Shown piece by piece: positions 40,281-54,113 of a stretch of 59,022 bases of DNA (within the stretch, counting starts at the first letter, position 1; each line of letters opens with the position of its first letter). The notes below the pieces were generated by a model. The model searched no databases. It was not told where the DNA came from and saw only the letters and a list, made by a program, of their open reading frames with translations. Source of the DNA: a virus (lineage: Duplodnaviria; Caudoviricetes); the IMG/VR virus record IMGVR_UViG_3300037195_000370, positions 1-59,022 of that record; one strand, 5' to 3'. The position numbers were made by a program, and so were the translations under genes.

Positions 40281-40754
40281 TTAGGGACAACCCTCAAGAA
40301 TTGGCATGATTGGTCCTCTTTTCTGCTCTTGATACTTTCCCTCATAGCCATCTGTTGCTTCGTCAACAAAGTGGAATATGATTTGGGCGATAGGCATTTC
40401 TCGTTGAATGATGATTTCTCTATCACTATGATTTGTTAGCTCAAGAGTGAGAAAACCTTTCCATCCTGGCTCAATGACGGTGTTCTGAACTGCAAGACCG
40501 AACCTAGCCCAAGTGGACTTGTCGTGGACAATTCCGAGAACATTGTTCGGCATATTGAATTGTTCGATTGTAGACGCCAGTCTGAATTCTCCAGGTTCAA
40601 GAGAAATCTGTGGGATCTCACCCCTCTCGTCGAATTCAACTCGCACATCGTATCCCGCTGGTCCGCAACCGAAAGTCATGCCCTTGTGCCGGGTCCGCCC
40701 GTAGAACGGGTTCATGATGTCAAGTCTCTGGATGGTCTTACCGCTTAAGATCAT
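40281..40754 (-). CDS. dcd: dCTP deaminase
   Basis: Start MILSGK; AGYDVR, HDKSTWAR, VIEPGWKGFLTLEL and YEGKYQ motifs. Confidence 0.9.
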   Translation of the reverse strand: MILSGKTIQRLDIMNPFYGRTRHKGMTFGCGPAGYDVRVEFDERGEIPQISLEPGEFRLASTIEQFNMPNNVLGIVHDKSTWARFGLAVQNTVIEPGWKGFLTLELTNHSDREIIIQREMPIAQIIFHFVDEATDGYEGKYQEQKRGPIMPILEGCP

Positions 40755-40917
40755 TTGCGCATCTCTCGCATCTGTGAATGTTGTATCCATAGAAACGCCA
40801 GCCTTCTGCTTCCGCATCTTCCCACGCTTGGTAGAAGTCTTGCGTCTCGTCTCCGGTTTGATCTCCGCAGTCGTCACACTCGAATATCTTACCATTCTTT
40901 CCATTCAGAGCAGCCAT
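40738..40917 (-). CDS. Small Zn-finger protein
   Basis: CDDC...GW...HRCERC; GGAGG SD. Confidence 0.65.
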   Translation of the reverse strand: MAALNGKNGKIFECDDCGDQTGDETQDFYQAWEDAEAEGWRFYGYNIHRCERCANDLKR

Positions 40918-40918
40918 C

Positions 40919-41641
40919 TCACCCTCCGATCTTGATGTAGGTTGCCAGTGTCTGCCACAAGCTCTCGTTGTGGAGCCGGGGCGGAACTTCTGCTTCGAAT
41001 CCATTGTTCAGCATCATGTCGTGCAGGTCTTGGGCTTTCTTCAAGCCGAACCCGTTGATGTGGATTTCCAGCGCGACTTGACGCAGATCAGGATACGCAG
41101 CGATCAGCGTCTCCATGAACTCGAACTCCGCACCCTCGCAATCGATCTTAGCGACGTCGATCACCGGATGCTTGTTCTTCAGAGTGGCGACCGACATGAA
41201 GCTGATCGACACTTCCACCCGGCCACGTCGCGGCGTCGTGCTGGAATTACCGGGATTCTTGCCTGTTTTGCTGAGATACAGCACACCGTCACCGTCCTGG
41301 CTCGAAGTCAACGCCTTGTTGTGAAGTGTAGTATTCTCTTCATCTTTCATGTTCAGCGAAAGCATGTTGAAGTTGTTTACTTCCGGCTCCAGCGAAATGA
41401 CGTGCATCGCACCTTTGTCCACAGCCCAGCGGGTGAAGCAGCCGATGTTCGCGCCGATGTCTAGCACGACCCTTCCTTCCACGTCCAGCTTGCCATAGCT
41501 GCGATTGATCTCTTTTGAGACATATTCATCATAGGTGTTGTTTCTACACCAGATAGGCTGTGTGAAACCTTTTGATGTCACTTGATACAGTGAACGTTCT
41601 TCGAACTCACCATCAACAAGGACTCCGTATTGTTCAGACAT
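40919..41641 (-). CDS. FkbM-family SAM-dependent methyltransferase
   Basis: VLDIGANIG, SLEP and KIDCEGAE motifs. Confidence 0.9.
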   Translation of the reverse strand: MSEQYGVLVDGEFEERSLYQVTSKGFTQPIWCRNNTYDEYVSKEINRSYGKLDVEGRVVLDIGANIGCFTRWAVDKGAMHVISLEPEVNNFNMLSLNMKDEENTTLHNKALTSSQDGDGVLYLSKTGKNPGNSSTTPRRGRVEVSISFMSVATLKNKHPVIDVAKIDCEGAEFEFMETLIAAYPDLRQVALEIHINGFGLKKAQDLHDMMLNNGFEAEVPPRLHNESLWQTLATYIKIGG

Positions 41642-42083
41642 TTCGTCTCTCCTTTCTTTGTTCCATTGTATCGTTTAGAACTCTGTCCATGATATTATCA
41701 CTCTTAGTTGACCACATCACATGTCTCGGATTTATACATTTCTTATTGTCACAGAGATGTGAAGCTTCTGCATTCTTAGTTGATTTCTTTCCAGTCGCTA
41801 CAATCCTATGAACATATTCTGATCCTGTCCAGGCATATCCAGCACAAAGGCCGAAAGGCCATTCTACACAATCATCAGTATCACTATGAATGGCTTCATT
41901 AATGAATCTATGAATCTCTTCTTTCGTTGCATATTTCTTAGTCTCATGAAGTGGATCTCCATGCCTCATGAATTTATTGTAGTGGGATAGACACATTTGT
42001 CTTTTCTTGTTGACGATAGGTCTATCACATCCATTTACTGAACATTTATTCCACACTTTTGATTTCACCCCAGCTAGGTCCAA
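41634..42083 (-). CDS. HNH (His-Cys box-like) endonuclease
   Basis: CSVNGC..CLSHY, CVEW, VHR, ASHLCDNKKCINPRH...N. Confidence 0.85.
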   Translation of the reverse strand: MDLAGVKSKVWNKCSVNGCDRPIVNKKRQMCLSHYNKFMRHGDPLHETKKYATKEEIHRFINEAIHSDTDDCVEWPFGLCAGYAWTGSEYVHRIVATGKKSTKNAEASHLCDNKKCINPRHVMWSTKSDNIMDRVLNDTMEQRKERRNV

Positions 42084-44124
42084 CTTCTGTATCGACTCTG
42101 AAGGGCACCCAGAGCTTGCCTGGATACGCGTCGATGATACAGTCTCTCATGATGTTGCCAGCTTCTTTCGCTTCGGCAACAGTAGAATAGCTTCCGTTAG
42201 TATCGTCATGAACCTGCAACTGGATGAAATGCCCAGCACGATCAAGTTCACAGATAGCAAGCTTTGTCTGGTCAGCAGATGAGCCTTGGATTACACGATT
42301 GAGAGCTTTGTGTGTGAAATCGTAAGATCCATCTTCACGACGTTCAAAGTTGAGCCTTCTACCGAGAATAGTTTTTACGAAACCGATAGCTTTAGCTCTT
42401 TCAGTAGCTGCTTTCGCAAGTTCTCGGACATATGGAACTTCGCTATCAAAATTGTCTAAGATCTCTTGTCCTTCTTCACCAGCCATTTCTCGCACGAAGC
42501 CTTTCTGGATTTCCATGCGATAAGACATGGCCTCTCTTTGGGTTTCGAAGAACTCCATCCTGCGATCTTTACCCCATCCATAGGTCACAGCCCAACGAGT
42601 AGGCTTACCGATGTCGCGGCATAGCTTGGCTCCACCTTCACCATAACACAACCCAAGAAAGATGTTCTTGGAGTAACCACGGTGAACCTTGTAGGCTCCT
42701 TTCGGATCATTCTTGAACCACTCATCTACCTGCTTATCACCATAGACCAGCCGGGTCATCATGTCGTGGTTATCTGTGCTGGGATCGTTCTGATATCTCA
42801 GAGCTGCTTCTCTTGCTCTGGGCAAATCCAAAACCGCAGCAAAATGAGTTGTCCATCTTGGTTCTTGCTGCGAATAGTCATTACAGCCCCACAGAGCGTC
42901 TTCCTCAGGGATAAAGATCTTGCGCCACTCGCCAGCAATTTCAGGGTCTCTATCAGGACTAGGCTGCTGCTGAAGGTTCGGATCAGCAGCGGACAGTCTT
43001 CCGAATCGGACACCAACAGTGTCACCGGAGGAGTCAGACATCGCCATTTGCCTAAATGAGCAATGAAGTCTTTCTCCAACAGCATACTTTCTGATAGAAG
43101 CCGCAAATGTCGTTCGTAGTTTGTTGACTTTTCTGGCTCTGAGGATTGCTTGCGGGACGACATGATCACTACCTCCTAGCAAATCTCTATCGATTGATGG
43201 GGCACCAGTTGCAGTCTTAGGCAGCCTCATACCGATAGCTTCTAAAGCAGGAGCAAGAGCACCGGGCTTCCACACTTCCCCAAATCCAATTTGGACGCCG
43301 GTCTCTCGTTTGATCAAGTCAAGAGCCTTACGTTCCTCAGACTCAGCCCACTTTTCAATCCGTTCTAGTTTATCAAAATCAATCCTGACGCCACGCCGTC
43401 TCATTCTAACTAGAACTGGTATAACTCTGCTTTCTAGTTCCCAGATTTGTTGTAGCCCATCTCTTTCAATTATCTCTTCTTGTCTTTTTAAGATCTCTAG
43501 GGGAGATGCTACATCCTGCTCCCCATATTTTCCGACATACCGCCCCGGTAGTCTCCAGAGACCCTTCTTTGGATCAAGACCGAAAGCTCTCGCAGCTTCC
43601 AAAAGTGTGGATTCGTCTTTAGCCTCGATACCATATCGTTTTCCAATTGCATCAAGGGAGTAGCTTCGATGAAGTTCGTAGATGAGGGGGTCAGCAATTT
43701 GAATGTCGCGGAACTTCGCATCTTGGTTCCATTCAAATCCATCGTTGTATCCATAATCAATATCGTAGGCGAGGTTGGCTCCCACGAACTCTCGATCAAA
43801 TCCTTTAATTTGTTCTCTAAGGTATCGGAGAACCATTTCGCAGTCGAGGTTATCGCCTCCTTCATGGCGGATCGGGAGATAGTGTCTAGGACCTCCTTCA
43901 ATGGCAAATGACCATCCGACAGTATATCCGTCGCGAAGAGATCCAGGTCCCAACTTCGCACCAATACTCGGGTCTCTGGTTTCGGCATCAATCGCAATCC
44001 TTTTAGCGTCCTTCCACGATGGAAGGTCAGAAAGTGACGGTGGACGCCACTCCGCCTCAGGCATAAAGAACCCAAGCTGGAGAGCGCCACCGTTATTCGG
44101 GTCTGATTTCTTTCGTGCTGCCAT
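42046..44124 (-). CDS. polA: DNA polymerase, family A, with 3'-5' exonuclease
   Basis: IDAET, DYSQQEPR, KNIFLGLCYG, IQGSSADQ and VHDD; start re-called at MAARKK. Confidence 0.95.
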   Translation of the reverse strand: MAARKKSDPNNGGALQLGFFMPEAEWRPPSLSDLPSWKDAKRIAIDAETRDPSIGAKLGPGSLRDGYTVGWSFAIEGGPRHYLPIRHEGGDNLDCEMVLRYLREQIKGFDREFVGANLAYDIDYGYNDGFEWNQDAKFRDIQIADPLIYELHRSYSLDAIGKRYGIEAKDESTLLEAARAFGLDPKKGLWRLPGRYVGKYGEQDVASPLEILKRQEEIIERDGLQQIWELESRVIPVLVRMRRRGVRIDFDKLERIEKWAESEERKALDLIKRETGVQIGFGEVWKPGALAPALEAIGMRLPKTATGAPSIDRDLLGGSDHVVPQAILRARKVNKLRTTFAASIRKYAVGERLHCSFRQMAMSDSSGDTVGVRFGRLSAADPNLQQQPSPDRDPEIAGEWRKIFIPEEDALWGCNDYSQQEPRWTTHFAAVLDLPRAREAALRYQNDPSTDNHDMMTRLVYGDKQVDEWFKNDPKGAYKVHRGYSKNIFLGLCYGEGGAKLCRDIGKPTRWAVTYGWGKDRRMEFFETQREAMSYRMEIQKGFVREMAGEEGQEILDNFDSEVPYVRELAKAATERAKAIGFVKTILGRRLNFERREDGSYDFTHKALNRVIQGSSADQTKLAICELDRAGHFIQLQVHDDTNGSYSTVAEAKEAGNIMRDCIIDAYPGKLWVPFRVDTEVGPSWGEIKSVE

Positions 44125-44600
44125 CAGGCGTATTCTCCACAACCACGACCCGTCTTGCTGCTGTCGGTCGGCGAGGTGAAATCCTGCCACGACACCCAGC
44201 CCTTCGGACACTGGAAGCCCCAGTCCCGAACCTTCGGCCCGGTAGCGAACAGCGAGATCGCACGCTGACCGGGGATCACCTCCAGACGATGCAGGTCGGT
44301 AGGCTTGCGGTGAACGATATCACCAGCCTTCCGCTCAAACACACCTTCCGGCGTATGTTCAATATAGCCGCCGGACAGAAGGAGCGACGTGTTCTCCCAC
44401 GGATGGTCGTGCATGGCACGGTCGTCGTCGCTCTTGCGAATGTCGTGGAGATACAGGTTGTAGAGTTGGTTTCTCGGGATGACCCACCACCGGAGCAAGT
44501 AGTGGTCGCCGATAATGAAGTCCGGATCACGGCCTGCCATCAGGTCTTCTGCCCAAGCAGCCATGTCCTCAAGGGATGCGTGACCGAGATCAAGGCTCAT
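44124..44600 (-). CDS. Cupin-like protein
   Basis: YLH...DDDRAMHDHPW...GGYIE...LHRLE metal-binding cupin pattern. Confidence 0.7.
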   Translation of the reverse strand: MSLDLGHASLEDMAAWAEDLMAGRDPDFIIGDHYLLRWWVIPRNQLYNLYLHDIRKSDDDRAMHDHPWENTSLLLSGGYIEHTPEGVFERKAGDIVHRKPTDLHRLEVIPGQRAISLFATGPKVRDWGFQCPKGWVSWQDFTSPTDSSKTGRGCGEYA

Positions 44601-45253
44601 TATTCGTCTCCTTCGTAGCCAAACGGGGCGGGATGGTTGATACCGCCGACCTCTCTGGACGCGCTGGATGCCGCGCCCTGCCCTACCATACCACCAGCAC
44701 GTCCAGGGACGTCCTGTTTTGGTCCAGCAGCGGGCCTTGGCGGTGGGCAGTAGGGGTTAGGGGCATTAAGGTCAAACCCCGCCTCCTGCGCCATTTTAGC
44801 GGTCCTAATAAGGTTAGCCAACCTCTCCTTTGCTAGCTCAATCATTGACAAAGGACATTGACCAATCAAGATTTCAAAAATACCACGCTCGTCTCCGAAC
44901 AAACCGAGAGTTTCAACAATGCGATCAGTGCAAGAACGTATTGTGTATCCTTTTCCATGATTGAAAATGTATTCAGGTCTCCTCATTCTAACTGCTATCA
45001 TTTTGTCTAGATAGCTCATGGCCTTGTTCAAATCTTCAATTCCATGTTTCTTACGCCAACGAGAAACATATTTCGTGCAATTTCCAACGAGATAGTGTAG
45101 CTGACAATCAATGACCCAGTCCCAATGTTGATATTCGGCCTGATAGTGGTCTCCTCCTTCTTGGGCTACATAGGCGCGACAATCGCAGGTAGCTCCATCC
45201 CAAAGCTCTTTTCCACACCGATTACACCGTTTTACATCACGATCATGGCTCAT
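44600..45253 (-). CDS. DUF3310 (T7 gp1.7-like nucleotide kinase family) protein
   Basis: GGDHY...GNCTKYVSRWRKKHGIEDLNKA. Confidence 0.8.
   Translation of the reverse strand: MSHDRDVKRCNRCGKELWDGATCDCRAYVAQEGGDHYQAEYQHWDWVIDCQLHYLVGNCTKYVSRWRKKHGIEDLNKAMSYLDKMIAVRMRRPEYIFNHGKGYTIRSCTDRIVETLGLFGDERGIFEILIGQCPLSMIELAKERLANLIRTAKMAQEAGFDLNAPNPYCPPPRPAAGPKQDVPGRAGGMVGQGAASSASREVGGINHPAPFGYEGDE
44651..44716. repeat. Dispersed GC-rich element inside a CDS
   Basis: ctggacgcgctgg-N26-ccagcacgtccag inverted arms with a CTACCATACCA core. Confidence 0.7.
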
Positions 45254-45840
45254 GATACATCTCCCAGATCCGGCATAAAGGACCAGTCATGATTGGAGCT
45301 TTCCCAATAAGTATCCAAGATCTTAGGGTGAAACTTCTCACCGTTTTTCTTGATATACTTATGAATACGATCAAGCATGACTTCAAGATTACGATTTCCA
45401 ATATGGATTTGATCTCGGCAGAATAGCGCAAGCTCTAAGATATCGAGACCGTGAAGCCACTTTTTCTCAATTTCGTTGAGAGCAGAACCGTGATCATAAT
45501 TGATGGTATCAATCAAAATGTCACTCTCAAGATCTGATAAACTCTCACTGTCAATTAAATTCAGCCATTTGGCAGGAGCGGGAATATCACCAGTCAGCCT
45601 TTCTGGAATATCATGCTCAATGATAGCCCAAACGAGAAACAGGCTCGCTTCTGGCCAAAGGACTCTCAGCATTGAAAGCATGTTGAACTTGTGAATAGCC
45701 AAGTTGTATTCACCAACGATAGGAATAGTGTGACAGCGACGAACTGCACCTGCCTCCCTCATGAATTTGATTTTCTCAATCGAACTCACAGCATGTTCAT
45801 AAGTCTTCATTTGCTTCTCCTGATCAGCCATTCCACACAA
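45250..45840 (-). CDS. HD-domain 5'-deoxynucleotidase (YfbR-like)
   Basis: VRRCHT, AIH, HDIPERLTGDIPAPAK and LDILE. Confidence 0.85.
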   Translation of the reverse strand: MCGMADQEKQMKTYEHAVSSIEKIKFMREAGAVRRCHTIPIVGEYNLAIHKFNMLSMLRVLWPEASLFLVWAIIEHDIPERLTGDIPAPAKWLNLIDSESLSDLESDILIDTINYDHGSALNEIEKKWLHGLDILELALFCRDQIHIGNRNLEVMLDRIHKYIKKNGEKFHPKILDTYWESSNHDWSFMPDLGDVS

Positions 45841-46826
45841 GCTTTCCTCCAGTCTTCAGCAGCGATCTTCTCTGCCAACTTCAGCGCATTTTCTGCATGA
45901 TTAGGGTTCTCGCGATCTTTCCATGCCATCCAAGATTGAAACATTGGTGAAGCAACTTTCTTGAAGAACACATCTTTGAAGCCCATTACTGGACCAACTT
46001 CCATGAACATTTCTAGATCTTGGAACCATTCGTCAATAGGTGAGTTCACAACTTTAAAAGGTCTTACGTTTCCAAGAGAATAGTCATCGAACCCAGGACT
46101 GATTTTGAGTAGATCGGAATGCTTCTTCAGTATGTTGTGATAGGCATGGAAATTCGTGCTTACCTGCCAATATCTCCCGATTGGAACTCCGACCCAAGCC
46201 GCCATCACCTCTTGGAGCATGGAAAAGTGAACTGCATTCGCACCATAGGCACCCCAGATCATATCGTTTGATCTGTTGAATACCGTCATGTCCAGAAAGT
46301 TGTATGGACTGATGCGAAATGTCGCGATCAAGTTGCAGGGGAAGTCTTTTCCTTCCATTCCGAGATCTGCAGAAGTATCCCACATTTGCAACACGACTCG
46401 TCTGTCGTCAGGGTTCATTTTGAGAAGTGAAGCAATCGTAGTGAGCTGATCAACGACGACATCCTTATATTGATAATCTCCTATGGCTGGAGAAAACCAG
46501 TTTCTCCAACGATAACCGTAGGCCCCATGAAACGTGACGCCGTCATCGCTGTAGTTCATTATGTTCGTGGAAAACTGGCTGATCCACTCTACATCTCGTC
46601 TGCCAGATAGCATCCACAAACTTTCCATGAAATGGAAGTATGGATTAGCATCCCTTTCTGGGAAGAACACCACCCTTTCTTCGGGTTCTTGATAAACAGT
46701 TGTCACAGGTTCTGGGAATACCCGAACCATACCATTTCGTGAGTCACGGTCCACACCTTCTTCTTGCAGAGCATTAAGCCCAAGAAGGAGAGCTTCGTTC
46801 ACATTGCGCGCAGATATGACTTTCAT
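45807..46826 (-). CDS. dUMP hydroxymethylase (thymidylate synthase superfamily)
   Basis: RDANPYFH, DFPCN catalytic Cys and RSNDMIWGAYGANAVHFS; Asn at the specificity position indicates dUMP. Confidence 0.88.
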   Translation of the reverse strand: MKVISARNVNEALLLGLNALQEEGVDRDSRNGMVRVFPEPVTTVYQEPEERVVFFPERDANPYFHFMESLWMLSGRRDVEWISQFSTNIMNYSDDGVTFHGAYGYRWRNWFSPAIGDYQYKDVVVDQLTTIASLLKMNPDDRRVVLQMWDTSADLGMEGKDFPCNLIATFRISPYNFLDMTVFNRSNDMIWGAYGANAVHFSMLQEVMAAWVGVPIGRYWQVSTNFHAYHNILKKHSDLLKISPGFDDYSLGNVRPFKVVNSPIDEWFQDLEMFMEVGPVMGFKDVFFKKVASPMFQSWMAWKDRENPNHAENALKLAEKIAAEDWRKACVEWLIRRSK

Positions 46827-48106
46827 ACCAGAATTCCATAGTGATTGAACATTAGATCGTCGAACTTTTCATAGAGATTGGGATCAACAGCACCAGTCTC
46901 TGTTTGGACGTCGCCATTAGCGAGATTGATAACCCTGTTCGCAACTGCTTTCCGGTCGAACTGGATCAAAATATCACGGGCTGCGTCCTGGAAATTACGA
47001 GCCTGCATTGCAGACATATGGCTCGTCTCGAGAATGATGTCAGCGTAGTCCTGTGCATCAAGGGCATCATCGAGAGGAACGTAGTGCTCGTCCGGCTTGA
47101 ACAGGGTAGTCCCCATGCCTCGCTTGTGTGCAACAGGGATAGCGCCTCGGATCATTGCATCAACCGCCACTCGATTCCAGTGACCACCGATCTTACTGTA
47201 TTTCTTGGACCAGCTTGGGTCAACAAGAACGCGAGCCATTTGCAGCCATTCGTCCACGTCTTGGGTCGGCCAGTAGTCGTGATGAGTCATTCCGTTCTCT
47301 AAGGCAACTTCCCAGATCCTGCGAGTATGAAATGGCTTTTCTGGATCATCGTGGAAATAGGCAGGCTTGCACTTTTCCTCACTCGTCATGTATTGATATT
47401 CAATACCCTTACCAGCGATCTCGCGAAGTTCACCCGGCATCCTTGGTGGCATGTAGGCGATTGACCGAACAAGCTCGTGAACATGCTTCCAAGCCTTGAA
47501 AGTCTGCATGTTCACAAAGCCAGAATACTTATCTTCCCATGAAGTAAATTCGCGAATAGGATTGAACTGAGGGTTCACAACCAATGCTCGCGGAATGGGA
47601 AAGATTACAGCAGAATTGAGCGCACATTCATGAACACATGCAAGCCCAGAGAGATGTTCAGCAACATGATAGAGATGCAGAGCATTGCTCTTAGCATTGC
47701 CATCGTGAATGAAAGCAACCTGCTTGACTCTGGGCTCAAGATCATAAAGCTCGGGCCATTTGTCATTTCCGAGATGCTGTCTGTTTTTCGGTGGAACCGG
47801 AACCGTCCAGATGACAATATCGTAATGATTCAAGATATGCTTGGCATTCGCCAAACCAGCAGAAGTCTTATAGGAGAGACGCGCATGTTTGGGAAAGTTC
47901 CAGCCCTTTCCCTGAGCGAACGGAATTCCGCTTGGTCCTCGTTCGAAATTGCCAGATCGCTCCTGAGCTTGGGCATTATCGGCATAGACAAGTTCATAGA
48001 GATGAGCCTCGTGACCAAGATCAAGGAAGCCGCCAATCAACTGTTCAGTATGATTGATGATACCACCAAGATCCATGCACGAATGCAGCGCAACAGCTAT
48101 TTTCAT
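46823..48106 (-). CDS. GT-B (GT4-like) glycosyltransferase, putative DNA-modifying
   Basis: N-terminal LGGIINHTEQL...LGHEA; C-terminal VLVDPS...VDAMIRGAIPV; start MKIAVAL; overlaps the hydroxymethylase start. Confidence 0.8.
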   Translation of the reverse strand: MKIAVALHSCMDLGGIINHTEQLIGGFLDLGHEAHLYELVYADNAQAQERSGNFERGPSGIPFAQGKGWNFPKHARLSYKTSAGLANAKHILNHYDIVIWTVPVPPKNRQHLGNDKWPELYDLEPRVKQVAFIHDGNAKSNALHLYHVAEHLSGLACVHECALNSAVIFPIPRALVVNPQFNPIREFTSWEDKYSGFVNMQTFKAWKHVHELVRSIAYMPPRMPGELREIAGKGIEYQYMTSEEKCKPAYFHDDPEKPFHTRRIWEVALENGMTHHDYWPTQDVDEWLQMARVLVDPSWSKKYSKIGGHWNRVAVDAMIRGAIPVAHKRGMGTTLFKPDEHYVPLDDALDAQDYADIILETSHMSAMQARNFQDAARDILIQFDRKAVANRVINLANGDVQTETGAVDPNLYEKFDDLMFNHYGILV

Positions 48107-48140
48107 GATGAGCTCCAGGGTAAGCAGTATGCCCCACCAT

Positions 48141-48169
48141 AGCGGCAGGACATACAAAAGACAATTATC
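48141..48169 (-). promoter_or_regulatory. sigma70-like promoter for the GT-hydroxymethylase operon
   Basis: TTGTCT-N17-TATGGT; coordinates approximate. Confidence 0.55.
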
Positions 48170-48424
48170 GTTTTGTCTTGTGTGCTCCTTTTATTATCGA
48201 GTAAACGATAATTATCGGAAGGAGCGGACCGATCATTAGAAAAGAGAGAAGAGCGACTAGCCAGTGCATCTTGGGCTTCAAACCGGCTCTAACTTGACGA
48301 TTATACCATTCTAGAAAGAACGCGAAAACCGCAAGCCAGTAGATCGTTATCCAGAAAACCCATGAATTAAATTCGAACACGATACTTGCTCCTCGGTTTT
48401 CCTTGCCCAAGACGAACACGTTCA
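48165..48424 (-). CDS. Small membrane protein (start uncertain)
   Basis: Two TM helices (WVFWITIYWLAVFAFF; LVALLSFLMIGPLLPIIIVY); no in-frame ATG next to the upstream stop. Confidence 0.45.
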
Positions 48425-49251
48425 TATTTGTCGAACTCACAAAGACCGAATTGAATGTCTGTGGGTGACAAAGTGAAATCGTGTTCAAAGAAAGCTTCTT
48501 GCATCTTTGTCATCTCCATGATTAGATCGAAAGCTTTCTGATTCTTCACAGGCTTGGCTTCGTCGTCTCCGAGAATACGGGCTGCTCCTCGCAATGCTCC
48601 TGGACCGATAGGGGTCCACTCGTTCCAGTCCTTTGGCAAGGATTTATTGTCGTAATACTTGTATGACCAGAAACCAGTGTAGGTCGTATCCAAAAGGATC
48701 TCTTTGGTCATGAATCCCGTGCCGCCAAAGCCTTGGATTTTCATCATCCGCTTGGCGACCTGTTCCCATGACTGAGTTGTCTGTGCCAGCTTTACGATCT
48801 CCGGCGTCGCTTGCCACAAAGCCTTGAGAAAGTGATGGACCACCACTTCTTGTTTCGGAGCAGAGATACCTTGATTTGTGATGACATACGCGCCCGTGAA
48901 TACTCTTTCACGATTTTCTAGCCTTTCAGCAGCTACTTCTTCTATGTAATTGAAACAGAAGTTATCATAGTCATGCCACCCAATAGCATTTGCGAATTCC
49001 CAGGTTCCGAAATACCTGAAAGTCGCACAATTCATGAGTATGGAACGACGGTCATCATGATATTTTGGCGTGTAGAATAGTTCCCTCAGCTTCATGCTTG
49101 TTCGATCGTGTTCTCGACGAACATTGGTGAATTTATAGGTCTGGAGAATAGGATCTTCAGTCCACGGAAAAGAATCGCCCGCCTCCTTTCGAAGGCGGAC
49201 GTTCTCACGTTCGTTCAGGTAATCGAAGAACGCATTCACGCGATTAAGCAT
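48367..49251 (-). CDS. aGPT-Pplase1 family protein (alpha-glutamyl/putrescinyl thymine pyrophosphorylase clade 1)
   Basis: ERENVR...PWTEDPILQTYKFTNVRREHDR, FTGAY, GPGALRG and LCEFDKYER. Confidence 0.88.
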   Translation of the reverse strand: MLNRVNAFFDYLNERENVRLRKEAGDSFPWTEDPILQTYKFTNVRREHDRTSMKLRELFYTPKYHDDRRSILMNCATFRYFGTWEFANAIGWHDYDNFCFNYIEEVAAERLENRERVFTGAYVITNQGISAPKQEVVVHHFLKALWQATPEIVKLAQTTQSWEQVAKRMMKIQGFGGTGFMTKEILLDTTYTGFWSYKYYDNKSLPKDWNEWTPIGPGALRGAARILGDDEAKPVKNQKAFDLIMEMTKMQEAFFEHDFTLSPTDIQFGLCEFDKYERVRLGQGKPRSKYRVRI

Positions 49252-49253
49252 GA

Positions 49254-49940
49254 TCAGGAAGCCTCGGCAGCCTCTTTCGCGGCCTTAGCAGCCTCTTTCT
49301 CTTTCTTTTTAGCCTCACGAGCGGCTTCACGTTCGGCCTTGGCCTTGGCGCGCTCTTCAGCTTTCCGAAGTTTCGCCGTTTCCGGATCTTCGCGACCGTG
49401 CTTCTTGAACCATTCAGCACGACGTTGGGCATACTCTTCGTCAGTGGGTTGCACGACTTCGACGTAGCCTTGCTTCTCCCAATTGAAGATATCCCAATCG
49501 CAGGTTCCCTCGCCTTCAATCGCTTCGATAACCATCATGCCGTCGCGATAATTACCGGAGCGATGAGAACGGTCCTCTTCCCCATCAAACGGCTTGATGA
49601 TTTTCATAACGCTGAACATCTTGCGAGTCGGACGCTTGACGTGGCGAGCTTCGCACGGCTTCGCGAGTTTGCGCTCTTTCGGTTCTTTCTTAACCTTACC
49701 TTTCTTAGCCTTGGGCTTTTCTTCGTCTTCGTCCGCAGACTCTTGATACTTCTGGAGAGCTTTCATCGTTTGCTCAACAGCAGTCTCGTGGTCTTTGAAC
49801 TGTTTAACAGCGGCTACTCCAAGATTGGAAGCGATCAGGTTGCGCAGTTCCAGCAGATCTTCATCGGGCATGCCTTCGAGATCAGCTTTGGTGTAGCTCT
49901 TGTCCAGGAATTGAATTGCTTCGGTCATAAGTGACTCCAT
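49254..49940 (-). CDS. Hypothetical charged protein leading the modification operon
   Basis: GGAG SD; upstream TTGCGG-N17-TAATAT; Lys/Glu/Ala-rich tail; no P-loop. Confidence 0.75.
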   Translation of the reverse strand: MESLMTEAIQFLDKSYTKADLEGMPDEDLLELRNLIASNLGVAAVKQFKDHETAVEQTMKALQKYQESADEDEEKPKAKKGKVKKEPKERKLAKPCEARHVKRPTRKMFSVMKIIKPFDGEEDRSHRSGNYRDGMMVIEAIEGEGTCDWDIFNWEKQGYVEVVQPTDEEYAQRRAEWFKKHGREDPETAKLRKAEERAKAKAEREAAREAKKKEKEAAKAAKEAAEAS

Positions 49941-50037: not shown

Positions 50038-51855
50038 TTATTCGTCGGCACAAGCGCCGGTTCGTTGACCGGTCTCGGGATCCCACCCACAGGCTTCTAC
50101 CAAACTCTCTTCCTTACTGGCGGACTTGATAGGCTCATCGTATTTGTCTGCCGGACGATAGGTAGTGCAGCCTTTCGCCCCACCTTCATACGCCATCAAA
50201 TACAGATCTTTGAAGTCATTGAAAGAGAAGTTCGCTGGAACATTCACGGTCTTTGAGCAAGCCGAGTCGATGTGCATCTGGGCAGTAGTGAGCACACCGA
50301 TATGTTCCGCAGCAGTGATTTCTCCGCTAACGACAGTCCTTCCACGAACACCGAGATATTCTACACCATAGTCGGGAACGACCACCTTCCGAGTCCCACC
50401 AGGAACGATAATCGTCCTCGCCTGCTTATAATCTAGGACTGGCTCAATGCCAGAGGATACGTTATCAGCAGTGAAGGAGATAGTGCCTGTCGGAGCAATG
50501 GAAGTGAGATGACTATTGCGAATACCATACTTCTTGATCATATCTTTGGTCTCATCCCAAAGACCTTCGATAAATCGAGAAGCCATATATCGATCTTCAT
50601 CGTAAAGCGGGAAGCTGCCCTTTTCTCGTGCGAGATTTGCAGAAGCCTGATAACATTTGTTCGTGATGAACGACATGATCTCTTCTTGCTTCTGCAGAAA
50701 CTTGACAGAACCGTAAGGGAAACCCATGGCCTCCAGAGCGTTAGCTACTCCGGTGTGACCGAGACCCATCCGCCTCTTCCTTTGGGCTTCCAACTTCTGC
50801 TGAGGAAGTGGATAACGGCTACGATCAACAACATTGTCCATCGCTCGAACAACGTGCGGGATATCAGCCTCGATTTGATCATAGTCAAACCAATATTTCC
50901 CATCAGCGTCTTTCTTGAGATATTTCACCCAATTGAAGCTGCCCAAGAGACAAGCGCCATAGGGAGGGAGAGGCTGTTCACCACATGGATTAGTTGCAGC
51001 GATCGTTTCACAGTAATAGAGATTATTCATCTCATTGATACGATCAATGAATAGGACACCCGGCTCTGCCCAATCGTAAGTCCCTCGCATAATCATGTCC
51101 CATAGAGCATGGGGATCGACTTCGCGATAGACCTTACCGCCGAATTGAAGAGGGAACGGTTTTCCAGAAGCGAGACACTCTATGAACTTGTCGGTAACAG
51201 CGATCGACATGTTGAAGCCGCGAAGAGGACGATATTCCCATGGGATAGAATCGTCATTGATCTGTTTAGCCCGAATGAAGGCTTCAATATCGGGATGATC
51301 AATGCGCATGACTAGCATCTGTGCGCCGCGTCTGTTGCCCGCAGAGGACGTCGCGCGGCATACAGCATCATATATAGGGGCAAAGGCAAGAGGACCATCT
51401 GTGGTGCTCTGAACGCCCCTGATGATGTCTCCAGAGGGCCGCAACGGGCTGATGTCGTAGCCCACACCGCCGCCCTGACGCATGGTGATTGCAGCGTTCT
51501 TAGCTGTGTCCATGATGCTAAGAGGAGCGTGTGACCCAGGAGGGAGAGCTTTGAGTTCTTCTCTTGTTGGTCCGTCTGTGAAACTATCGTGGATAGTTGC
51601 CATGACGAAACAATTATAGAGAGTGACGTTTTTCAGAGATCCAGCACCAGCTTGAACTCGTCCAGGAGGCATGAAACGCTGATACAGGCTGATATCACGA
51701 AAAGCCATGTAGTGTTCGTGATTATCTTGCAGAAATCCAGACCATCGATTCGCCGCTTCTCGAAAATCTTCGTTTTCGCCGCGATATTTTTCTGCGTGAA
51801 CTAGATCGCAGTCTGGGTTCTTTGGACCATACATTCGTCTTGTCTCCTGATTCAT
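50038..51855 (-). CDS. nrdJ: Class II (B12-dependent) ribonucleotide reductase
   Basis: TNPCGEQPL, IAPTGTIS and SSGIEP; no beta-subunit gene in the genome. Confidence 0.9.
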   Translation of the reverse strand: MNQETRRMYGPKNPDCDLVHAEKYRGENEDFREAANRWSGFLQDNHEHYMAFRDISLYQRFMPPGRVQAGAGSLKNVTLYNCFVMATIHDSFTDGPTREELKALPPGSHAPLSIMDTAKNAAITMRQGGGVGYDISPLRPSGDIIRGVQSTTDGPLAFAPIYDAVCRATSSAGNRRGAQMLVMRIDHPDIEAFIRAKQINDDSIPWEYRPLRGFNMSIAVTDKFIECLASGKPFPLQFGGKVYREVDPHALWDMIMRGTYDWAEPGVLFIDRINEMNNLYYCETIAATNPCGEQPLPPYGACLLGSFNWVKYLKKDADGKYWFDYDQIEADIPHVVRAMDNVVDRSRYPLPQQKLEAQRKRRMGLGHTGVANALEAMGFPYGSVKFLQKQEEIMSFITNKCYQASANLAREKGSFPLYDEDRYMASRFIEGLWDETKDMIKKYGIRNSHLTSIAPTGTISFTADNVSSGIEPVLDYKQARTIIVPGGTRKVVVPDYGVEYLGVRGRTVVSGEITAAEHIGVLTTAQMHIDSACSKTVNVPANFSFNDFKDLYLMAYEGGAKGCTTYRPADKYDEPIKSASKEESLVEACGWDPETGQRTGACADE

Positions 51856-51865
51856 CAGATTTTTC

Positions 51866-53116
51866 CTAGCTGTGCATATCTACGACGGTTATCCTTTCGG
51901 CTGCTCTCGTGATAGCCGTATAAAGCCAGCGCCTTCTTTCTTTCTTTGGACCCCAACTTTCATCAAATACACAGACGCTGTCCCATTGAGAACCTTGTGA
52001 TTTGTGGACTGTCAGAGCATATCCATAATCAAATTCTTGACCTTCTGACCTAAGCCAGTATTGGGTATCAAGCTCTTTCCCTCTACCGAGAAAATGCTGT
52101 TCAAGAGCAGCAACCTCGATATCCCCGGAAAGAGGATTATCTTGAGAACGGATATTCATGTGGACTTTTCCGTCCATGACACCATCAACGCCAGTGACGT
52201 TGAAAATAGCACCATTTAGCAAGCCTAACTCAGCGTTATTTCTTAGGCAAACTAAACGATCCCCGACCACGGGATATTCGTCATCAAAGTTGAGAAATTG
52301 ACGAACTCGCTTATTCATAGCTGATCGTGTCTTATTCTTACCCACGAGAAGCTGGTCGTATGATAGAACTTCTTCTTGAGAAAGCTTTGTCCCATAGGGG
52401 TGGACTGAGCAACCTTCACCCCAATCACCGAACTGTAATTCATTCCCTAGCCTGACTTCTGTAGCCATTCTAAGAATTGGGCTCTCTTTGGCTTGTCTGT
52501 GGATCTCGTCAAGCATTATGTCTGGGGTGACATTTTCGGTGAAATACCCGGCAGCACCAACAGGGGGAAGTTGAGCAGGATCACCCAAGACGAGAATGGG
52601 AGTTCCAAAGCTGAGAAGGTCTTGCCCCATGGAGGAGTCGACCATTGAACATTCGTCTATGATTACAAGAGGAGCGTTACGAACTTCGCTTTCTGTATTC
52701 AAAACGAACATTGGCTGATTGGCGTTTCTCGCTTCTTCGGCTATCTCTCTTTCAAGCGATCTAACTTTTGGGTGATTTTCGATGTATTCTTGCTTCATGT
52801 CTTCTAATGAAACAAGAAGTTCAGCCAGTTCGATCTTTAGTTCTTCAAGACGTTTCTTGCTTTTATCACGACTTCTATAAATCAGAGAGTGGATCGTAGA
52901 AGCGTTGGTGCATCCTTTGGTCTGCAGAACGTGCGCCGCTTTGCCAGTGTAAGCGGCGAACAAGACATCTTCACCGATGTTTTCTGCTAGATATTTTGCG
53001 AGAGTAGTTTTGCCCGTTCCTGCATACCCAAAGAGGTGAAATACCTGCTTATCGCCATTACGATACCAGTCATTCGCCGCTTTTAGTGCAGCTTCTTGCT
53101 GAGGACTAAATTTCAT
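51866..53116 (-). CDS. RecD/Dda-like SF1B helicase
   Basis: GYAGTGKT, IIDECSM, GDPAQLPPV, HKSQGSQW and YTAITRA. Confidence 0.92.
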   Translation of the reverse strand: MKFSPQQEAALKAANDWYRNGDKQVFHLFGYAGTGKTTLAKYLAENIGEDVLFAAYTGKAAHVLQTKGCTNASTIHSLIYRSRDKSKKRLEELKIELAELLVSLEDMKQEYIENHPKVRSLEREIAEEARNANQPMFVLNTESEVRNAPLVIIDECSMVDSSMGQDLLSFGTPILVLGDPAQLPPVGAAGYFTENVTPDIMLDEIHRQAKESPILRMATEVRLGNELQFGDWGEGCSVHPYGTKLSQEEVLSYDQLLVGKNKTRSAMNKRVRQFLNFDDEYPVVGDRLVCLRNNAELGLLNGAIFNVTGVDGVMDGKVHMNIRSQDNPLSGDIEVAALEQHFLGRGKELDTQYWLRSEGQEFDYGYALTVHKSQGSQWDSVCVFDESWGPKKERRRWLYTAITRAAERITVVDMHS

Positions 53117-53196
53117 GTGGACTCCAGATTTTGTGGGCGGCGACAAGGTTAAGATAATGAGTCAAACCATGTCGCCACCCTACCGTTCCGCCTGGA

Positions 53197-54045: not shown

Positions 54046-54113
54046 TGTATAGGCTCCTAGCTGATAGTTGATCGACCAGCGGTCATCCCCAACACTATCC
54101 TAGTTGGGCAGGA

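What the first reader, a model, noticed from the sequence alone, without database searches (positions are those of the whole stretch)
44600..49251. Thymidine hypermodification cluster pointing to glycosylated 5-hydroxymethyluracil (base J-like)
Seen: aGPT-Pplase1, GT-B glycosyltransferase, dUMP hydroxymethylase (Asn specificity residue), HD nucleotidase and DUF3310 in one run, with dcd, nrdJ and FkbM nearby. Established: M6, ViI and phiW-14 replace T with hmU and modify it through a 5-hmU DNA kinase and amino acid/amine transferases. T4 glucosylates hmC, and kinetoplastid base J is beta-glucosyl-hmU. Here I see no kinase, radical SAM or PLP enzyme; a glycosyltransferase occupies that position and overlaps the hydroxymethylase start. 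Inference: direct glycosylation of hmU, probably alpha-linked if GT4-like and probably at TC sites. Similar gene pairings may have been predicted computationally; I cannot check this.
Basis: partly seen in the sequence, partly recalled or inferred. Interest (0 to 1): 0.9.

Follow-up and report, generated by a model that had tools for sequence, protein, structure and literature searches.

The report
Kinase-free sugar-on-hydroxymethyluracil phage DNA cassette
An uncultured marine relative of Pseudomonas phage M6 carries genes that should replace thymine with 5-hydroxymethyluracil and then attach a sugar to it, a base-J-like phage DNA that has been predicted but not yet measured.

Summary
On the minus strand lie translationally coupled genes for aGPT-Pplase1/HMUDK_hel (48367-49251), a GT-B glycosyltransferase (46823-48106), a thymidylate-synthase homolog with the dUMP-hydroxymethylase signature (45807-46826), an HD hydrolase and DUF3310. 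dcd, FkbM and NrdJ are nearby. No 5-hmdU DNA kinase, amino-acid:DNA transferase, radical SAM or TET/JBP match was found in six frames.

The backbone is syntenic with phage M6, but the glycosyltransferase stands where M6 has its kinase cassette. Three new lines tie it to hydroxymethyluracil DNA:
- Of 63 related loci, all have the helical protein. Twenty-three have a kinase, 12 this GT-B, 16 a TAGT (PF20691) DNA glycosyltransferase and 8 a third GT-like protein. None has both a kinase and a glycosyltransferase.
- GT-B and TAGT swap between close lineages on the TS tree.
- An unrelated Pol III-type phage encodes this GT-B fused to the helical domain, directly upstream of its TS homolog.

The likely product is O-glycosylated hydroxymethyluracil, perhaps methylated on the sugar. 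The chemistry, anomer, site preference and role of the helical protein remain untested. The TC-site idea has no support.

This scan found the same cassette before on other DNA. I found no paper reporting the base in a phage. The cultured marine phage PhiJL001 carries the TAGT version and could be tested.

The parts
48367..49251 (-). aGPT-Pplase1 / HMUDK_hel (PF18723) helical protein, 294 aa. It is the homolog of M6 gp55. Cys271-Glu272 are invariant in an LCEFDK motif.
   Evidence: E 5.9e-39. (29% identity to M6 ORF055). (invariant residues). (model pLDDT 92.1). (no PDB fold match at E<=0.001).
48165..48488 (-). Small hydrophobic ORF between the helical gene and the GT. Its start is uncertain, since the ORF as listed overlaps the 3' end of the helical gene. 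It may encode a membrane protein of about 70-80 aa. Whether it belongs to the cassette is unknown.
   Evidence: translation. Relatives found in 16 of 35 GT loci. No Pfam match.
46823..48106 (-). GT-B fold glycosyltransferase, 427 aa. It is the predicted DNA hydroxymethyluracil glycosyltransferase.
   Evidence: PF00534. (pLDDT 91.6; top PDB hit is T4 alpha-glucosyltransferase 1y6f_B, E 1.3e-11, TM 0.61-0.65). (a compact family always next to the TS homolog). (fusion with HMUDK_hel).
45807..46826 (-). Thymidylate-synthase homolog, the predicted dUMP hydroxymethylase, 339 aa.
   Evidence: (52% identity to M6 gp58 over the full length). (catalytic Cys; Asp at the L143 position, Asp at D169, Asn at N177). 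(far below the NCBIfam thymidylate-synthase equivalog cut-offs).
45250..45810 (-). HD-domain phosphohydrolase, YfbR-like, homolog of M6 gp59. The probable start is the ATG at 45810, which overlaps the TS stop.
44600..45253 (-). DUF3310 protein, counterpart of M6 gp61. Function unknown.
40919..41641 (-). FkbM-family SAM methyltransferase, a candidate sugar O-methyltransferase. This role is inferred.
   Evidence: It lies in the slot between the helical gene and the GT in L026 and L030-L032. It occurs in 11 of 36 glycosyltransferase-type loci and 0 of 23 kinase-type loci.
40281..40904 (-). dCTP deaminase, which supplies dU nucleotides.
42046..44211 (-). Family A DNA polymerase. It is context: the enzyme that would incorporate hmdUTP.
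50038..51855 (-). Class II (B12-dependent) ribonucleotide reductase NrdJ. Context only.

Best explanation
The phage replaces thymidine with 5-hydroxymethyl-deoxyuridine before replication.
- dCTP deaminase gives dU nucleotides.
- The TS homolog hydroxymethylates dUMP.
- The HD hydrolase probably trims competing nucleotides.
- Host or unidentified kinases make hmdUTP, and the phage PolA incorporates it.

After replication, the GT-B glycosyltransferase moves a sugar from a host NDP-sugar onto the 5-CH2OH group of hmU in DNA. The product would be a base-J-like 5-(glycosyloxymethyl)uracil. The linkage is probably alpha, because the fold matches retaining enzymes.

The helical protein aGPT-Pplase1 works with the transferase on the same substrate, most simply as the part that recognises or exposes hmU in DNA. 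The FkbM methyltransferase may O-methylate the sugar. The likely benefit is protection from host restriction nucleases.

Shown here: the gene content, the residue signatures, the fold, the conserved context, the exclusivity with kinases, the swaps with TAGT and the fusion.
Inferred: every chemical step, the sugar, the anomer and the roles of the helical protein and FkbM.
For: (1) Synteny with M6, a phage with hmU-derived bases. The order is Dda helicase, RNR, gp49-like, helical protein, [slot], TS, HD, DUF3310, PolA. The TS homolog is 52% identical to M6 gp58.

(2) TS signature, following sections 24 and 28 of PMC13326640. The L143 position is Asp (hydroxymethyl product), D169 is kept (not a 5-hydroxylase) and N177 is kept (uracil). 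This holds in 36 of 36 sequences: the window, M6 gp58 and 34 loci. It also holds in PhiJL001 and L119.

(3) No kinase or AADT. There are no PF18748 or PF18724 matches in the window. There are none in 4 of 4 relatives that are 99-100% complete, while the M6 control is found at 1.1e-19 and 2.3e-48. PF18748 is also absent from 5 of 5 further records, PhiJL001 included.

(4) The GT always travels with the pair. The TS homolog follows it in 34 of 35 loci and the helical gene precedes it in 33 of 35; the exceptions are truncated. GT identity falls as low as 35%. The family is compact: 277 hits at E<=1e-3 among 1.84 billion representatives.

(5) Slot survey seeded on the TS homolog. Sixty-three loci have at least 2.5 kb upstream.
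- Helical protein: 63 of 63.
- Kinase: 23.
- GT-B: 12.
- TAGT PF20691: 16.
- GT-like 'U330': 8.
- Nothing in the slot: 4.
- Kinase together with any glycosyltransferase: 0.
TAGT was confirmed by Pfam in 5 of 5 proteins tested. Its known members glycosylate DNA (passages of PMC13216743 and PMC13390438).

(6) The TS tree needs GT-B in at least 3 places. Two of these sit beside or inside TAGT lineages, with 99% SH-aLRT support.

(7) Fusion. P0255/P0331 has GT-B at residues 7-444 (E 1.2e-57 to the family profile) joined to HMUDK_hel at 510-790 (E 9.7e-86). It lies on two viral contigs, directly upstream of a TS homolog with the same signature, in a Pol III-type phage.

(8) Fold. The top PDB match is T4 DNA alpha-glucosyltransferase bound to DNA. 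The viral library returns DNA alpha-GTs and the SP-15 GT.

(9) The genes are translationally coupled.
Against: - There is no chemical measurement of any virion DNA from this clade.
- The fold does not single out DNA as acceptor. T4 AGT (E 1.3e-11) barely leads glycogen synthase (2.4e-11), MshA and PimA.
- No sequence membership in the AGT family (PF11440; also absent from the 22 members scanned at E<=1) or TAGT (PF20691).
- The window protein's own PF00534 score is under the gathering cut-off.
- I recognised no sugar-nucleotide gene in the window, so the donor is unknown.
- A simple O-glycosylation does not explain why the helical protein is universal. It keeps an invariant Cys-Glu pair, and it occurs with the TS homolog alone in 4 of 63 loci.
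- No cultured phage (0 of 50,697 records) and no bacterial genome carries this GT-B.
- The loci are related and partly come from the same contigs as the first set, so the counts are not independent events.
- The kinase and AADT screens of the 115 loci used single M6 queries, plus one round of profile building for the 80 TS-seeded loci only, within 8-9 kb flanks. A very divergent or distant kinase could be missed there.
- The window record is rated 97% complete, not closed.
Confidence: 0.65

Rival explanations
1. The sugar is not the end product. The GT, in place of the kinase, loads a group on hmU. The helical protein then uses its invariant Cys-Glu pair for the C6-attack chemistry shown for the clade-2 aGPT-Pplases. 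It would exchange, rearrange or remove the group, so the virion base would differ from O-glycosyl-hmU.
For: - The helical protein is present in 63 of 63 loci whatever the transferase.
- It keeps an invariant Cys-Glu in a C-terminal motif that resembles, by eye, the E-x-x-L-C active-site stretch of M6 gp51 and PaMx11 gp46.
- It is fused to kinases in other phages and to this GT.
- GT and kinase occupy the same slot and never co-occur.
Against: - Profile-profile comparison of the helical family with AADTs gave only 3% probability, and the aligned stretch was not the Cys.
- The BLAST match over the motif has E = 4.
- Foldseek did not pair the model with any PDB entry, although PaMx11 gp46 structures are reported as solved (PMC11472151, abstract and sections 11 and 14 read).
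- M6 gp55 was dispensable for the in vitro reaction (PMC8989533 passages).
- A sugar alkoxide is a poor leaving group (chemical reasoning, not tested).
Confidence: 0.12
2. The phage makes plain hmU DNA, and the glycosyltransferase acts on something other than DNA, such as a virion or host protein or a cell-envelope glycan.
For: - Sequence and fold place it among GT4-like enzymes whose known members mostly act on lipids, sugars and small molecules.
- One source names relatives 'glycosyltransferase involved in cell wall biosynthesis'.
- Pyle et al. (section 9 of the preprint read) note that about 65% of phage GT contigs show no link to base modification.
Against: - Its place between the helical gene and the TS homolog, inside the replication module, is invariant in 33-34 of 35 loci.
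- Its stop codon overlaps the TS start.
- The slot is filled in sister lineages by TAGT, a DNA glycosyltransferase family.
- It is never found with the DNA kinase.
- It is fused to the hmU-pathway helical domain.
- No relative was found in 185,579 bacterial and archaeal species genomes.
Confidence: 0.08
3. The TS homolog makes a different precursor, either a 5-hydroxy pyrimidine as in RB69 and DLP3 or ordinary dTMP. The GT would then glycosylate that base or none.
For: - TS homologs next to DNA glycosyltransferases were recently shown to be 5-hydroxy-dCMP synthases (PMC13326640: abstract and sections 24 and 28 read).
- The best PDB sequence match of the window protein is a CMP hydroxymethylase (MilA, E 3.7e-18).
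Against: - The residue signature from that paper argues against it. Asn at the N177 position points to uracil, not cytosine. Asp is kept at D169, whereas 5-hydroxylases have Asn. Asp at L143 points to a hydroxymethyl product, not methyl. This holds in 36 of 36 sequences.
- The protein is 52% identical over its full length to M6 gp58.
- All NCBIfam thymidylate-synthase hits are far below the equivalog cut-offs.
Confidence: 0.04

Closest known systems
Thymidine hypermodification clusters of Pseudomonas phages M6/YuA and PaMx11, also ViI, PhiW-14 and SP10 (Lee et al. 2018 PMC5889632; Lee et al. 2021 PMC8989533)
   Same: Both share the replication-module backbone and gene order. Both have the dUMP hydroxymethylase homolog (52% identity), the aGPT-Pplase1/HMUDK_hel protein (29%), the HD hydrolase and DUF3310. 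Both place the modification genes next to the TS homolog and PolA.
   Different: The window has no 5-hmdU DNA kinase, clade-2 aGPT-Pplase (AADT), PLP enzyme, radical SAM enzyme or Nmad5. A GT-B glycosyltransferase fills the slot. The appended group should therefore be a sugar on the hydroxyl, not an amino acid or amine that displaces a phosphate.
T-even phage glucosylation of 5-hydroxymethylcytosine (T4 alpha- and beta-glucosyltransferases; T2/T6 TAGT-family beta-glucosyl-HMC-alpha-glucosyltransferase)
   Same: The logic is the same: a TS-family hydroxymethylase makes the precursor nucleotide, and a glycosyltransferase then acts on the DNA. T4 AGT is the top structural match of the window GT. 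TAGT fills the same slot in sister lineages.
   Different: The base is uracil-derived, with Asn at the specificity residue, not cytosine-derived. There is no sequence membership in PF11440 or PF20691. The helical protein has no counterpart that I know of in T-even phages (recalled, not tested).
Base J of kinetoplastids (JBP1/2 thymidine hydroxylases plus the JGT glucosyltransferase)
   Same: The predicted product class is the same: a sugar on the hydroxymethyl group of hmU in DNA.
   Different: Here hmU would be made before replication by a TS homolog, not by oxidation of T in DNA. No TET/JBP domain is present. The transferase is GT-B, whereas JGT is described as GT-A-like and its linkage as beta (recalled). 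The scale would be genome-wide replacement rather than about 1% of T.
Alphaproteobacteria phage PhiJL001 (AY576273; Keylargovirus, Mesyanzhinovviridae), cultured
   Same: It is marine and has the same backbone: Dda 50%, RNR 56%, helical protein 29%, TS 46%, HD 36% and PolA 43% identity. It is kinase-free and has a glycosyltransferase between the helical gene and the TS homolog.
   Different: Its transferase is a TAGT (GT-A) annotated 'glucosyl transferase', not the GT-B. It also keeps an Nmad5 gene. I could not read its 2005 genome paper, so I do not know whether its DNA was examined.
Phage GT-B/ThyS gene neighbourhoods surveyed by Pyle et al. (bioRxiv 10.1101/2023.12.21.572611; Cell Rep 2024)
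   Same: They report that about 28% of metagenomic GT-B-type contigs lie near a thymidylate-synthase homolog (section 9 read).
   Different: That survey is framed around cytosine hypermodification. The text I read does not describe the helical-protein/GT/TS trio, the exclusivity with the kinase or an hmU product.

Membership tests
M6/ViI-type thymidine hypermodification pathway (5-HMUDK + AADT) | dUMP hydroxymethylase homolog that supplies hmdU | tested here: met
   52% identity to M6 gp58. Cys, Asp(L143), Asp(D169) and Asn(N177) signature.
M6/ViI-type thymidine hypermodification pathway (5-HMUDK + AADT) | 5-hmdU DNA kinase (P-loop, PF18748) | tested here: not met
   No six-frame match at E<=10. 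No relative of M6 gp54. The control search finds M6's own kinase. The loose Walker A pattern matched 6 frames; two are the terminase and the Dda helicase, and the other four were not family-tested.
M6/ViI-type thymidine hypermodification pathway (5-HMUDK + AADT) | Amino acid:DNA transferase (clade-2 aGPT-Pplase, PF18724) | tested here: not met
   No match at E<=10. The control search finds M6 gp51 at 2.3e-48.
M6/ViI-type thymidine hypermodification pathway (5-HMUDK + AADT) | Hypermodified thymidine in virion DNA | not testable with these tools
   Only assembled contigs of marine metagenome runs hold the sequence.
Pfam PF18723 HMUDK_hel (formerly aGPT-Pplase1) | Score over the curated cut-off along the whole domain | tested here: met
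   134.6 bits against 25; profile positions 4-277 of 281.
Pfam PF18723 HMUDK_hel (formerly aGPT-Pplase1) | Helix-hairpin-helix DNA-glycosylase-like fold, as claimed in the literature | tested here: inconclusive
   The model is confident and all-alpha (pLDDT 92.1). Foldseek found 0 PDB matches at E<=0.001; the best has E 2 and TM 0.1-0.2. G-x-G motifs of the HhH kind are visible by eye only.
dUMP hydroxymethylase (thymidylate synthase superfamily) | Catalytic Cys; Asn at the N177 position (uracil); acidic residue at L143 (hydroxymethyl); Asp kept at D169 (not a 5-hydroxylase) | tested here: met
   using the criteria in PMC13326640 sections 24 and 28.
dUMP hydroxymethylase (thymidylate synthase superfamily) | Formation of hmdUMP from dUMP and methylene-THF | not testable with these tools
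   Needs an enzyme or in vivo assay.
GT-B fold, GT4-like glycosyltransferases (PF00534 clan) | Pfam score over the cut-off | tested here: inconclusive
   The window protein scores 22 bits against 26.4. All 22 of 22 family members match at E<=1, best 5.7e-9.
GT-B fold, GT4-like glycosyltransferases (PF00534 clan) | Two-Rossmann-domain GT-B fold | tested here: met
   pLDDT 91.6. 290 PDB matches at E<=0.001, and the listed ones are GT-B enzymes.
T4 DNA alpha-glucosyltransferase family (PF11440, CAZy GT72) | Sequence membership | tested here: not met
   No PF11440 match in six frames at E<=10, nor in any of the 22 family members at E<=1.
T4 DNA alpha-glucosyltransferase family (PF11440, CAZy GT72) | Structural likeness | tested here: met
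   1y6f_B is the top PDB hit (E 1.3e-11, TM 0.61/0.65), but GT4 and GT5 enzymes are within tenfold.
TAGT, TET-associated glycosyltransferase (PF20691) | Sequence membership | tested here: not met
   No match in the window. TAGT fills the equivalent slot in 16 of 63 related loci and in PhiJL001.
Base J system (JBP + JGT) | TET/JBP dioxygenase that makes hmU in DNA | tested here: not met
   No PF12851 match.
Base J system (JBP + JGT) | Glycosylated hmU as product | not testable with these tools
   Needs mass spectrometry of virion DNA.

The most novel reading that the evidence does not exclude
Glycosylation stands in for phosphorylation as the activating step. The GT and the helical Cys-Glu protein would form a two-part enzyme, fused in some phages, and the helical part would do C6-attack chemistry on the glycosylated base. 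The virion base would then be neither plain hmU nor a simple O-glycoside. It could be a rearranged or C-linked sugar base, or thymine regenerated at chosen sites. The helical protein would be the common catalytic core of all hmU-DNA modification systems.
Probability: 0.1. Interest if true: 0.85.

Novelty: new variant of a known kind. Interest (0 to 1): 0.62.

Why it matters
Glycosylated hydroxymethyluracil (base J) is known from kinetoplastids. In the papers I could search, phages are credited with sugar-bearing cytosines and with amino-acid- or amine-bearing thymines, but not with a sugar on hmU.

The survey here suggests that glycosyltransferase-type cassettes are at least as common as the characterised kinase type among relatives of the M6-type hydroxymethylase. 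In the sample taken they number 36 of 63 loci against 23. At least two, probably three, unrelated transferases fill the same slot.

If the prediction holds:
- It adds a widespread class of phage DNA with consequences for restriction, CRISPR and type IV defence, and for sequencing marine viromes.
- It gives new DNA glycosyltransferases that are specific for hmU as tools.
- It shows that the 'kinase helical domain' is not a kinase part but a general hmU-DNA module.

PhiJL001 offers a cultured entry point.

Tried and rejected
- **Complex prediction.** GT with the helical protein, both as alignments: no verdict, score 0.00. This is no evidence either way.
- **RNA evidence.** No RNA holder was listed for the stretch. 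The holders are contigs of marine metagenome runs from 3 studies and may be the source, so I did not lay reads. Contigs cannot show base modification.
- **Gene neighbourhoods by exact protein look-up.** I used the search for related loci instead.
- **Prophage or host search with the GT.** None found in the bacterial and archaeal species genomes. The host remains unknown.
- **Cultured carrier of the GT-B.** None among 50,697 phage records.
- **Homology of the helical family to the AADTs.** hhalign gave 3% probability and BLAST gave E 1.1-4. I therefore do not claim that Cys271 is the counterpart of the AADT catalytic Cys.
- **Residue four before that Cys.** I asked whether Glu or Gln tracks the partner enzyme.
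  - GT-B: Gln 13 of 13.
  - TAGT: 7 Gln, 7 Glu.
  - Kinase type: 12 Glu, 2 Gln, 1 Gly, and 7 without the motif by my pattern.
  - U330: 6 Glu, 1 Gln.
  - No transferase: 3 Glu, 1 Gln.
  This follows phylogeny rather than partner, so I dropped it.
- **Fusions of the helical domain.** The 'longer proteins' search listed kinases, PolA, primase-helicase, a MazG-like domain and an R-M methylase, but no GT. The GT fusion surfaced only in the exhaustive profile search.
- **Papers not held.** Iyer et al. 2013 and the PhiJL001 genome paper. What they say is recalled or unknown.
- **Supplements.** Those of Lee 2021 and Pyle 2023 may list similar contigs.
- **'Not in print'.** This rests on searches and on the passages read. 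The library lacks most subscription journals.
- **TC-site preference.** I found no way to test it and no basis for it.

Full report
**What is there.** The window is a whole IMG/VR virus record of 59,022 bp, rated 97% complete. Nearly all genes lie on the minus strand. Reading the minus strand from high to low coordinates:

| Coordinates | Gene | Evidence |
|---|---|---|
| 51866-53146 | Dda-like helicase | |
| 50038-51855 | Class II ribonucleotide reductase NrdJ (TIGR02504, 471 bits vs 400) | |
| 49254-49940 | 228-aa protein, no family match | |
| 48367-49251 | aGPT-Pplase1/HMUDK_hel (PF18723, E 5.9e-39) | |
| within 48165-48488 | Small hydrophobic ORF | |
| 46823-48106 | Glycosyltransferase | |
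| 45807-46826 | Thymidylate-synthase homolog | |
| 45250-45810 | HD hydrolase | |
| 44600-45253 | DUF3310 protein | |
| 44124-44600 | Cupin-like protein (phrog_4786) | |
| 42046-44211 | Family A DNA polymerase | |
| 41634-42083 | HNH endonuclease | |
| 40919-41641 | FkbM methyltransferase | |
| 40281-40904 | dCTP deaminase | |

Stop and start codons overlap as ATGA at GT/TS, TS/HD and HD/DUF3310.

**What is missing.** Six-frame searches of the record found none of the following:
- 5-hmdU DNA kinase (PF18748)
- amino-acid:DNA transferase (PF18724)
- radical SAM domain (PF04055)
- TAGT (PF20691)
- TET/JBP (PF12851)
- AGT-family match (PF11440)
- any relative of M6 gp54 or gp52

The kinase and AADT searches did find M6's own genes (1.1e-19 and 2.3e-48). 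They found nothing in four relatives that are 99-100% complete. The kinase search also found nothing in five further records.

A loose Walker A pattern matched six frames. Two are the terminase and the Dda helicase. The other four are short or antisense frames that I did not test further.

**Relation to M6.** The region is syntenic with Pseudomonas phage M6. M6 has this order: Dda, RNR, gp47-50, gp51 AADT, gp52 PLP enzyme, gp53 radical SAM, gp54 kinase, gp55 HMUDK_hel, gp56 Nmad5, gp57, gp58 TS, gp59 HD, gp60, gp61 DUF3310, gp62 PolA.

The window keeps the frame and gp55. It lacks gp51-54 and gp56. It has the glycosyltransferase between the gp55 and gp58 counterparts.

Lee et al. (PMC8989533, passages read) showed that gp54 plus gp51 suffice to glycinylate hmU DNA, and that gp55 was not needed in that assay. 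Table 3 of Lee et al. 2018 (PMC5889632, section 9 read) lists SP10 gp186 as a kinase fused to an aG/PT-PPlase. This probably explains the Pfam name 'kinase helical domain'.

**The TS homolog.**
- It is 52% identical to M6 gp58 over its full length.
- A 2026 paper (PMC13326640; abstract and sections 24 and 28 read) gives active-site criteria in E. coli ThyA numbering. N177 indicates uracil and Asp indicates cytosine. Leu at L143 indicates a methyl product and Asp or Glu a hydroxymethyl product. D169N marks the newly found 5-hydroxy-dCMP synthases.
- The window protein has the catalytic Cys, Asp at L143, Asp at D169 and Asn at N177 (alignment). So do M6 gp58 and all 34 orthologs from the GT loci, 36 of 36 in all. 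PhiJL001 gp24 and the TS of the fusion locus have them too.
- Its NCBIfam thymidylate-synthase scores are far below the equivalog cut-offs.
- This supports dUMP hydroxymethylase and argues against the 5-hydroxy route and against ordinary dTMP synthesis.

**The glycosyltransferase.**
- With an alignment of 22 relatives (A1), the model is confident: pLDDT 91.6, pTM 0.89.
- Foldseek against the PDB gave 290 matches at E<=0.001. The first is T4 DNA alpha-glucosyltransferase in complex with DNA (1y6f_B, E 1.3e-11, TM 0.61/0.65). Glycogen synthase, MshA, PimA and HepE are within a factor of about ten.
- The viral structure library returned an unnamed close match (TM 0.88, 25% identity), two proteins named DNA alpha-glucosyltransferase, a Bacillus phage SP-15 glycosyltransferase and FkbM-glycosyltransferase fusions.
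- So the fold is GT-B of the kind whose listed relatives are retaining enzymes. That assignment to retaining CAZy families is recalled. It is the only basis for 'alpha-linked'.
- By sequence the family is compact. The word-indexed search found 265 proteins at E<=1e-3, and the best 120 are at least 51% identical. The exhaustive search found 277, 210 and 140 representatives at E<=1e-3, 1e-10 and 1e-30 among 1.84 billion.
- It has no relative in 50,697 cultured-phage records or in the species genome collection.

**Context of the GT family.** Thirty-five viral loci with GT relatives (35-89% identity) were screened with window and M6 proteins.
- The TS homolog follows the GT in 34 of 35 loci. One locus ends inside the GT.
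- The helical gene precedes the GT in 33 of 35. The other two have under 600 nt upstream.
- No locus matched M6 gp51, gp52, gp53, gp54 or gp56.
- In L026 and L030-L032 the FkbM gene lies between the helical gene and the GT.

**A survey not seeded on the GT.** An alignment of the TS homolog (A3) found at least 581 relatives in IMG/VR, and the best 80 were kept. Some of these come from the same contigs as the first set. Sixty-three loci have at least 2.5 kb upstream of the TS:

| Slot content | Loci (of 63) |
|---|---|
| Helical protein present | 63 |
| M6-type kinase (18 also with an AADT) | 23 |
| Window-type GT-B | 12 |
| ~260-aa protein | 16 |
| 320-340-aa protein ('U330') | 8 |
| No added enzyme | 4 |
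| Kinase together with any glycosyltransferase | 0 |

- Pfam names the ~260-aa protein TAGT (PF20691) in 5 of 5 proteins tested, E 1.6e-8 to 2.3e-22.
- U330 has no Pfam match in 3 of 3 tested. The protein atlas places it among glycosyltransferases, including an AGT cluster (score 0.97-0.98, a lead only).
- TAGT includes the T2/T6 enzyme that adds the second glucose to glucosyl-hmC DNA (passages of PMC13216743 and PMC13390438).
- L046 has the window's backbone with TAGT in the slot.
- FkbM occurs in 11 of the 36 glycosyltransferase-type loci and in none of the 23 kinase-type loci. A SPASM radical SAM enzyme accompanies some glycosyltransferases.

**Tree.** On a tree of 61 distinct TS sequences (quick IQ-TREE, SH-aLRT only), the five labels need 12 changes. 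The minimum is 4 and the shuffled mean is 33.3. GT-B needs at least 3 origins or losses that well-supported branches force. L047/L049 (GT-B) are sister to L046 (TAGT) at 99. L066 (GT-B) sits inside a TAGT group at 99. Unrelated glycosyltransferases have thus replaced one another in one slot. This is what is expected if they do the same job on the same substrate.

**Fusion.** In the exhaustive search, one representative of 829 aa (P0255) matched the GT profile over positions 12-417 at E 1.2e-57.
- Pfam finds PF00534 in its first half and HMUDK_hel at residues 510-790 (E 9.7e-86). A Lys/Glu-rich linker joins them.
- Its cluster holds a second, 837-aa member from another source.
- Two viral contigs of 51 and 108 kb carry the uninterrupted gene. 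The two loci fetched around it are identical over 20,487 bp.
- The gene is followed at once by a TS homolog with the same signature, then a GIY-YIG endonuclease, an HD-like protein and a Pol III alpha polymerase.
- It is preceded by a cytidylyltransferase-like gene.
- The domain order, GT then helical, is the reverse of the window's gene order. Read-through of a window-like pair therefore cannot explain it.
- This phage is unrelated in backbone, so the trio is a unit that moves.
- Elsewhere the helical domain is fused to kinases, PolA, primase-helicases and a MazG-like domain. This fits a module that brings DNA-acting enzymes to hmU DNA.

**The helical protein itself.**
- Its model is confident and all-alpha but has no PDB fold match.
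- Residues invariant across 21 sequences include Cys271-Glu272 in an LCEFDK motif, which M6 gp55 shares.
- In PaMx11 gp46 the active site uses Glu243 and Cys247 (PMC11472151, sections 11 and 14 read). M6 gp51 shows a similar E-x-x-L-C stretch.
- Profile comparison does not establish homology: 3% probability.
- Its role is therefore open. It could be a recognition subunit (my preference), a co-catalyst, or an enzyme with a job of its own.

**Cultured relative.** PhiJL001 is a marine Keylargovirus. It has helicase, RNR, gp19 helical protein, gp22 TAGT (annotated as similar to the T6 enzyme), gp23 Nmad5, gp24 TS, HD, PolA and dCMP deaminase, and no kinase. I could not read its genome paper.

**Habitat.** The window's stretch stands complete in five marine metagenome runs from three studies. 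Each may be the source of this DNA.

**Literature.** Searches found no report of a sugar on hmU in phage DNA. A 2024 paper's introduction lists base J for kinetoplastids only (PMC11550810, passage). Pyle et al. note that about 28% of GT-B contigs lie near a TS homolog (section 9 read). A 2026 paper on phage T-dioxygenases links one clade to glycosyltransferases (PMC13229309, passages). Iyer et al. 2013, which named these families and may have predicted such pairings, is not held.

**Earlier notes of this scan.** The same GT-B cassette and TAGT versions were noted on other DNA. Their readings agree with mine. One note's mention of cultured carriers led me to look for PhiJL001.

**Verdict.** It is unproven chemically and unsupported in its details on site and anomer. 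It is a new variant of a known kind of phage DNA hypermodification.

Noticed in passing
window 48165-48488 (-): A small hydrophobic ORF lies between the helical gene and the GT. Its C-terminal 65 residues or so look like two membrane helices. Relatives occur in 16 of 35 GT loci. It has no family match, and its start is unclear.
   Followed up: partly
L090, L093, L095-L097, L102, L104, L107, L082, L110 (slot between the helical gene and TS): A third slot protein of 320-340 aa ('U330') has no Pfam match. The protein atlas places it among glycosyltransferases, including an AGT cluster. It is probably another DNA glycosyltransferase family.
   Followed up: partly
L083:1382-2353, L108:7714-8670; also L047 and L049: Radical SAM plus SPASM enzymes sit beside TAGT or GT-B in the slot of some relatives. 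They may tailor the sugar. The window has none.
   Followed up: partly
L119:8543-8980: A cytidylyltransferase-like gene (PF01467, 5.2e-12) overlaps the start of the GT-helical fusion gene. It may make the activated donor there.
   Followed up: no
proteins P0132-P0180: The HMUDK_hel domain is fused to family A DNA polymerase, primase-helicases, a MazG-like domain (PF18722), thymidylate-kinase-like kinases and an R-M methylase. It also occurs in long proteins of eukaryotic algae (Chrysophaeum, Aureococcus), with PHD or ankyrin domains in uncultured relatives.
   Followed up: no
window 41634-42083 and 56607-57062 (-): There are two HNH endonuclease genes. The first lies between PolA and FkbM and is present in only some relatives (L007-L010). 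They are likely homing endonucleases.
   Followed up: no
window 44124-44600 (-): A cupin-like protein (phrog_4786, annotated 'cysteine dioxygenase', E 3e-52) lies between DUF3310 and PolA. It was found in only 3 of 35 GT loci (L014, L016, L032). Its role is unknown.
   Followed up: no
helical protein, residue 267 (window 48367-49251): The residue four before the invariant Cys is Gln in all 13 GT-B-linked helical proteins but mostly Glu in kinase-linked ones (12 of 15 with the motif). TAGT-linked ones are split 7 to 7. This looks phylogenetic rather than functional.
   Followed up: yes
L079, L103, L112, L113: Four loci have the helical gene next to the TS homolog with no transferase or kinase detected in the slot. 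They may be phages with plain hmU, or they may carry enzymes that my queries missed.
   Followed up: no
window 53197-55147 (-): Three consecutive genes match Pam3 gp34, gp33 and gp32-like families. This ties the phage to the wider Mesyanzhinovviridae-like group.
   Followed up: no
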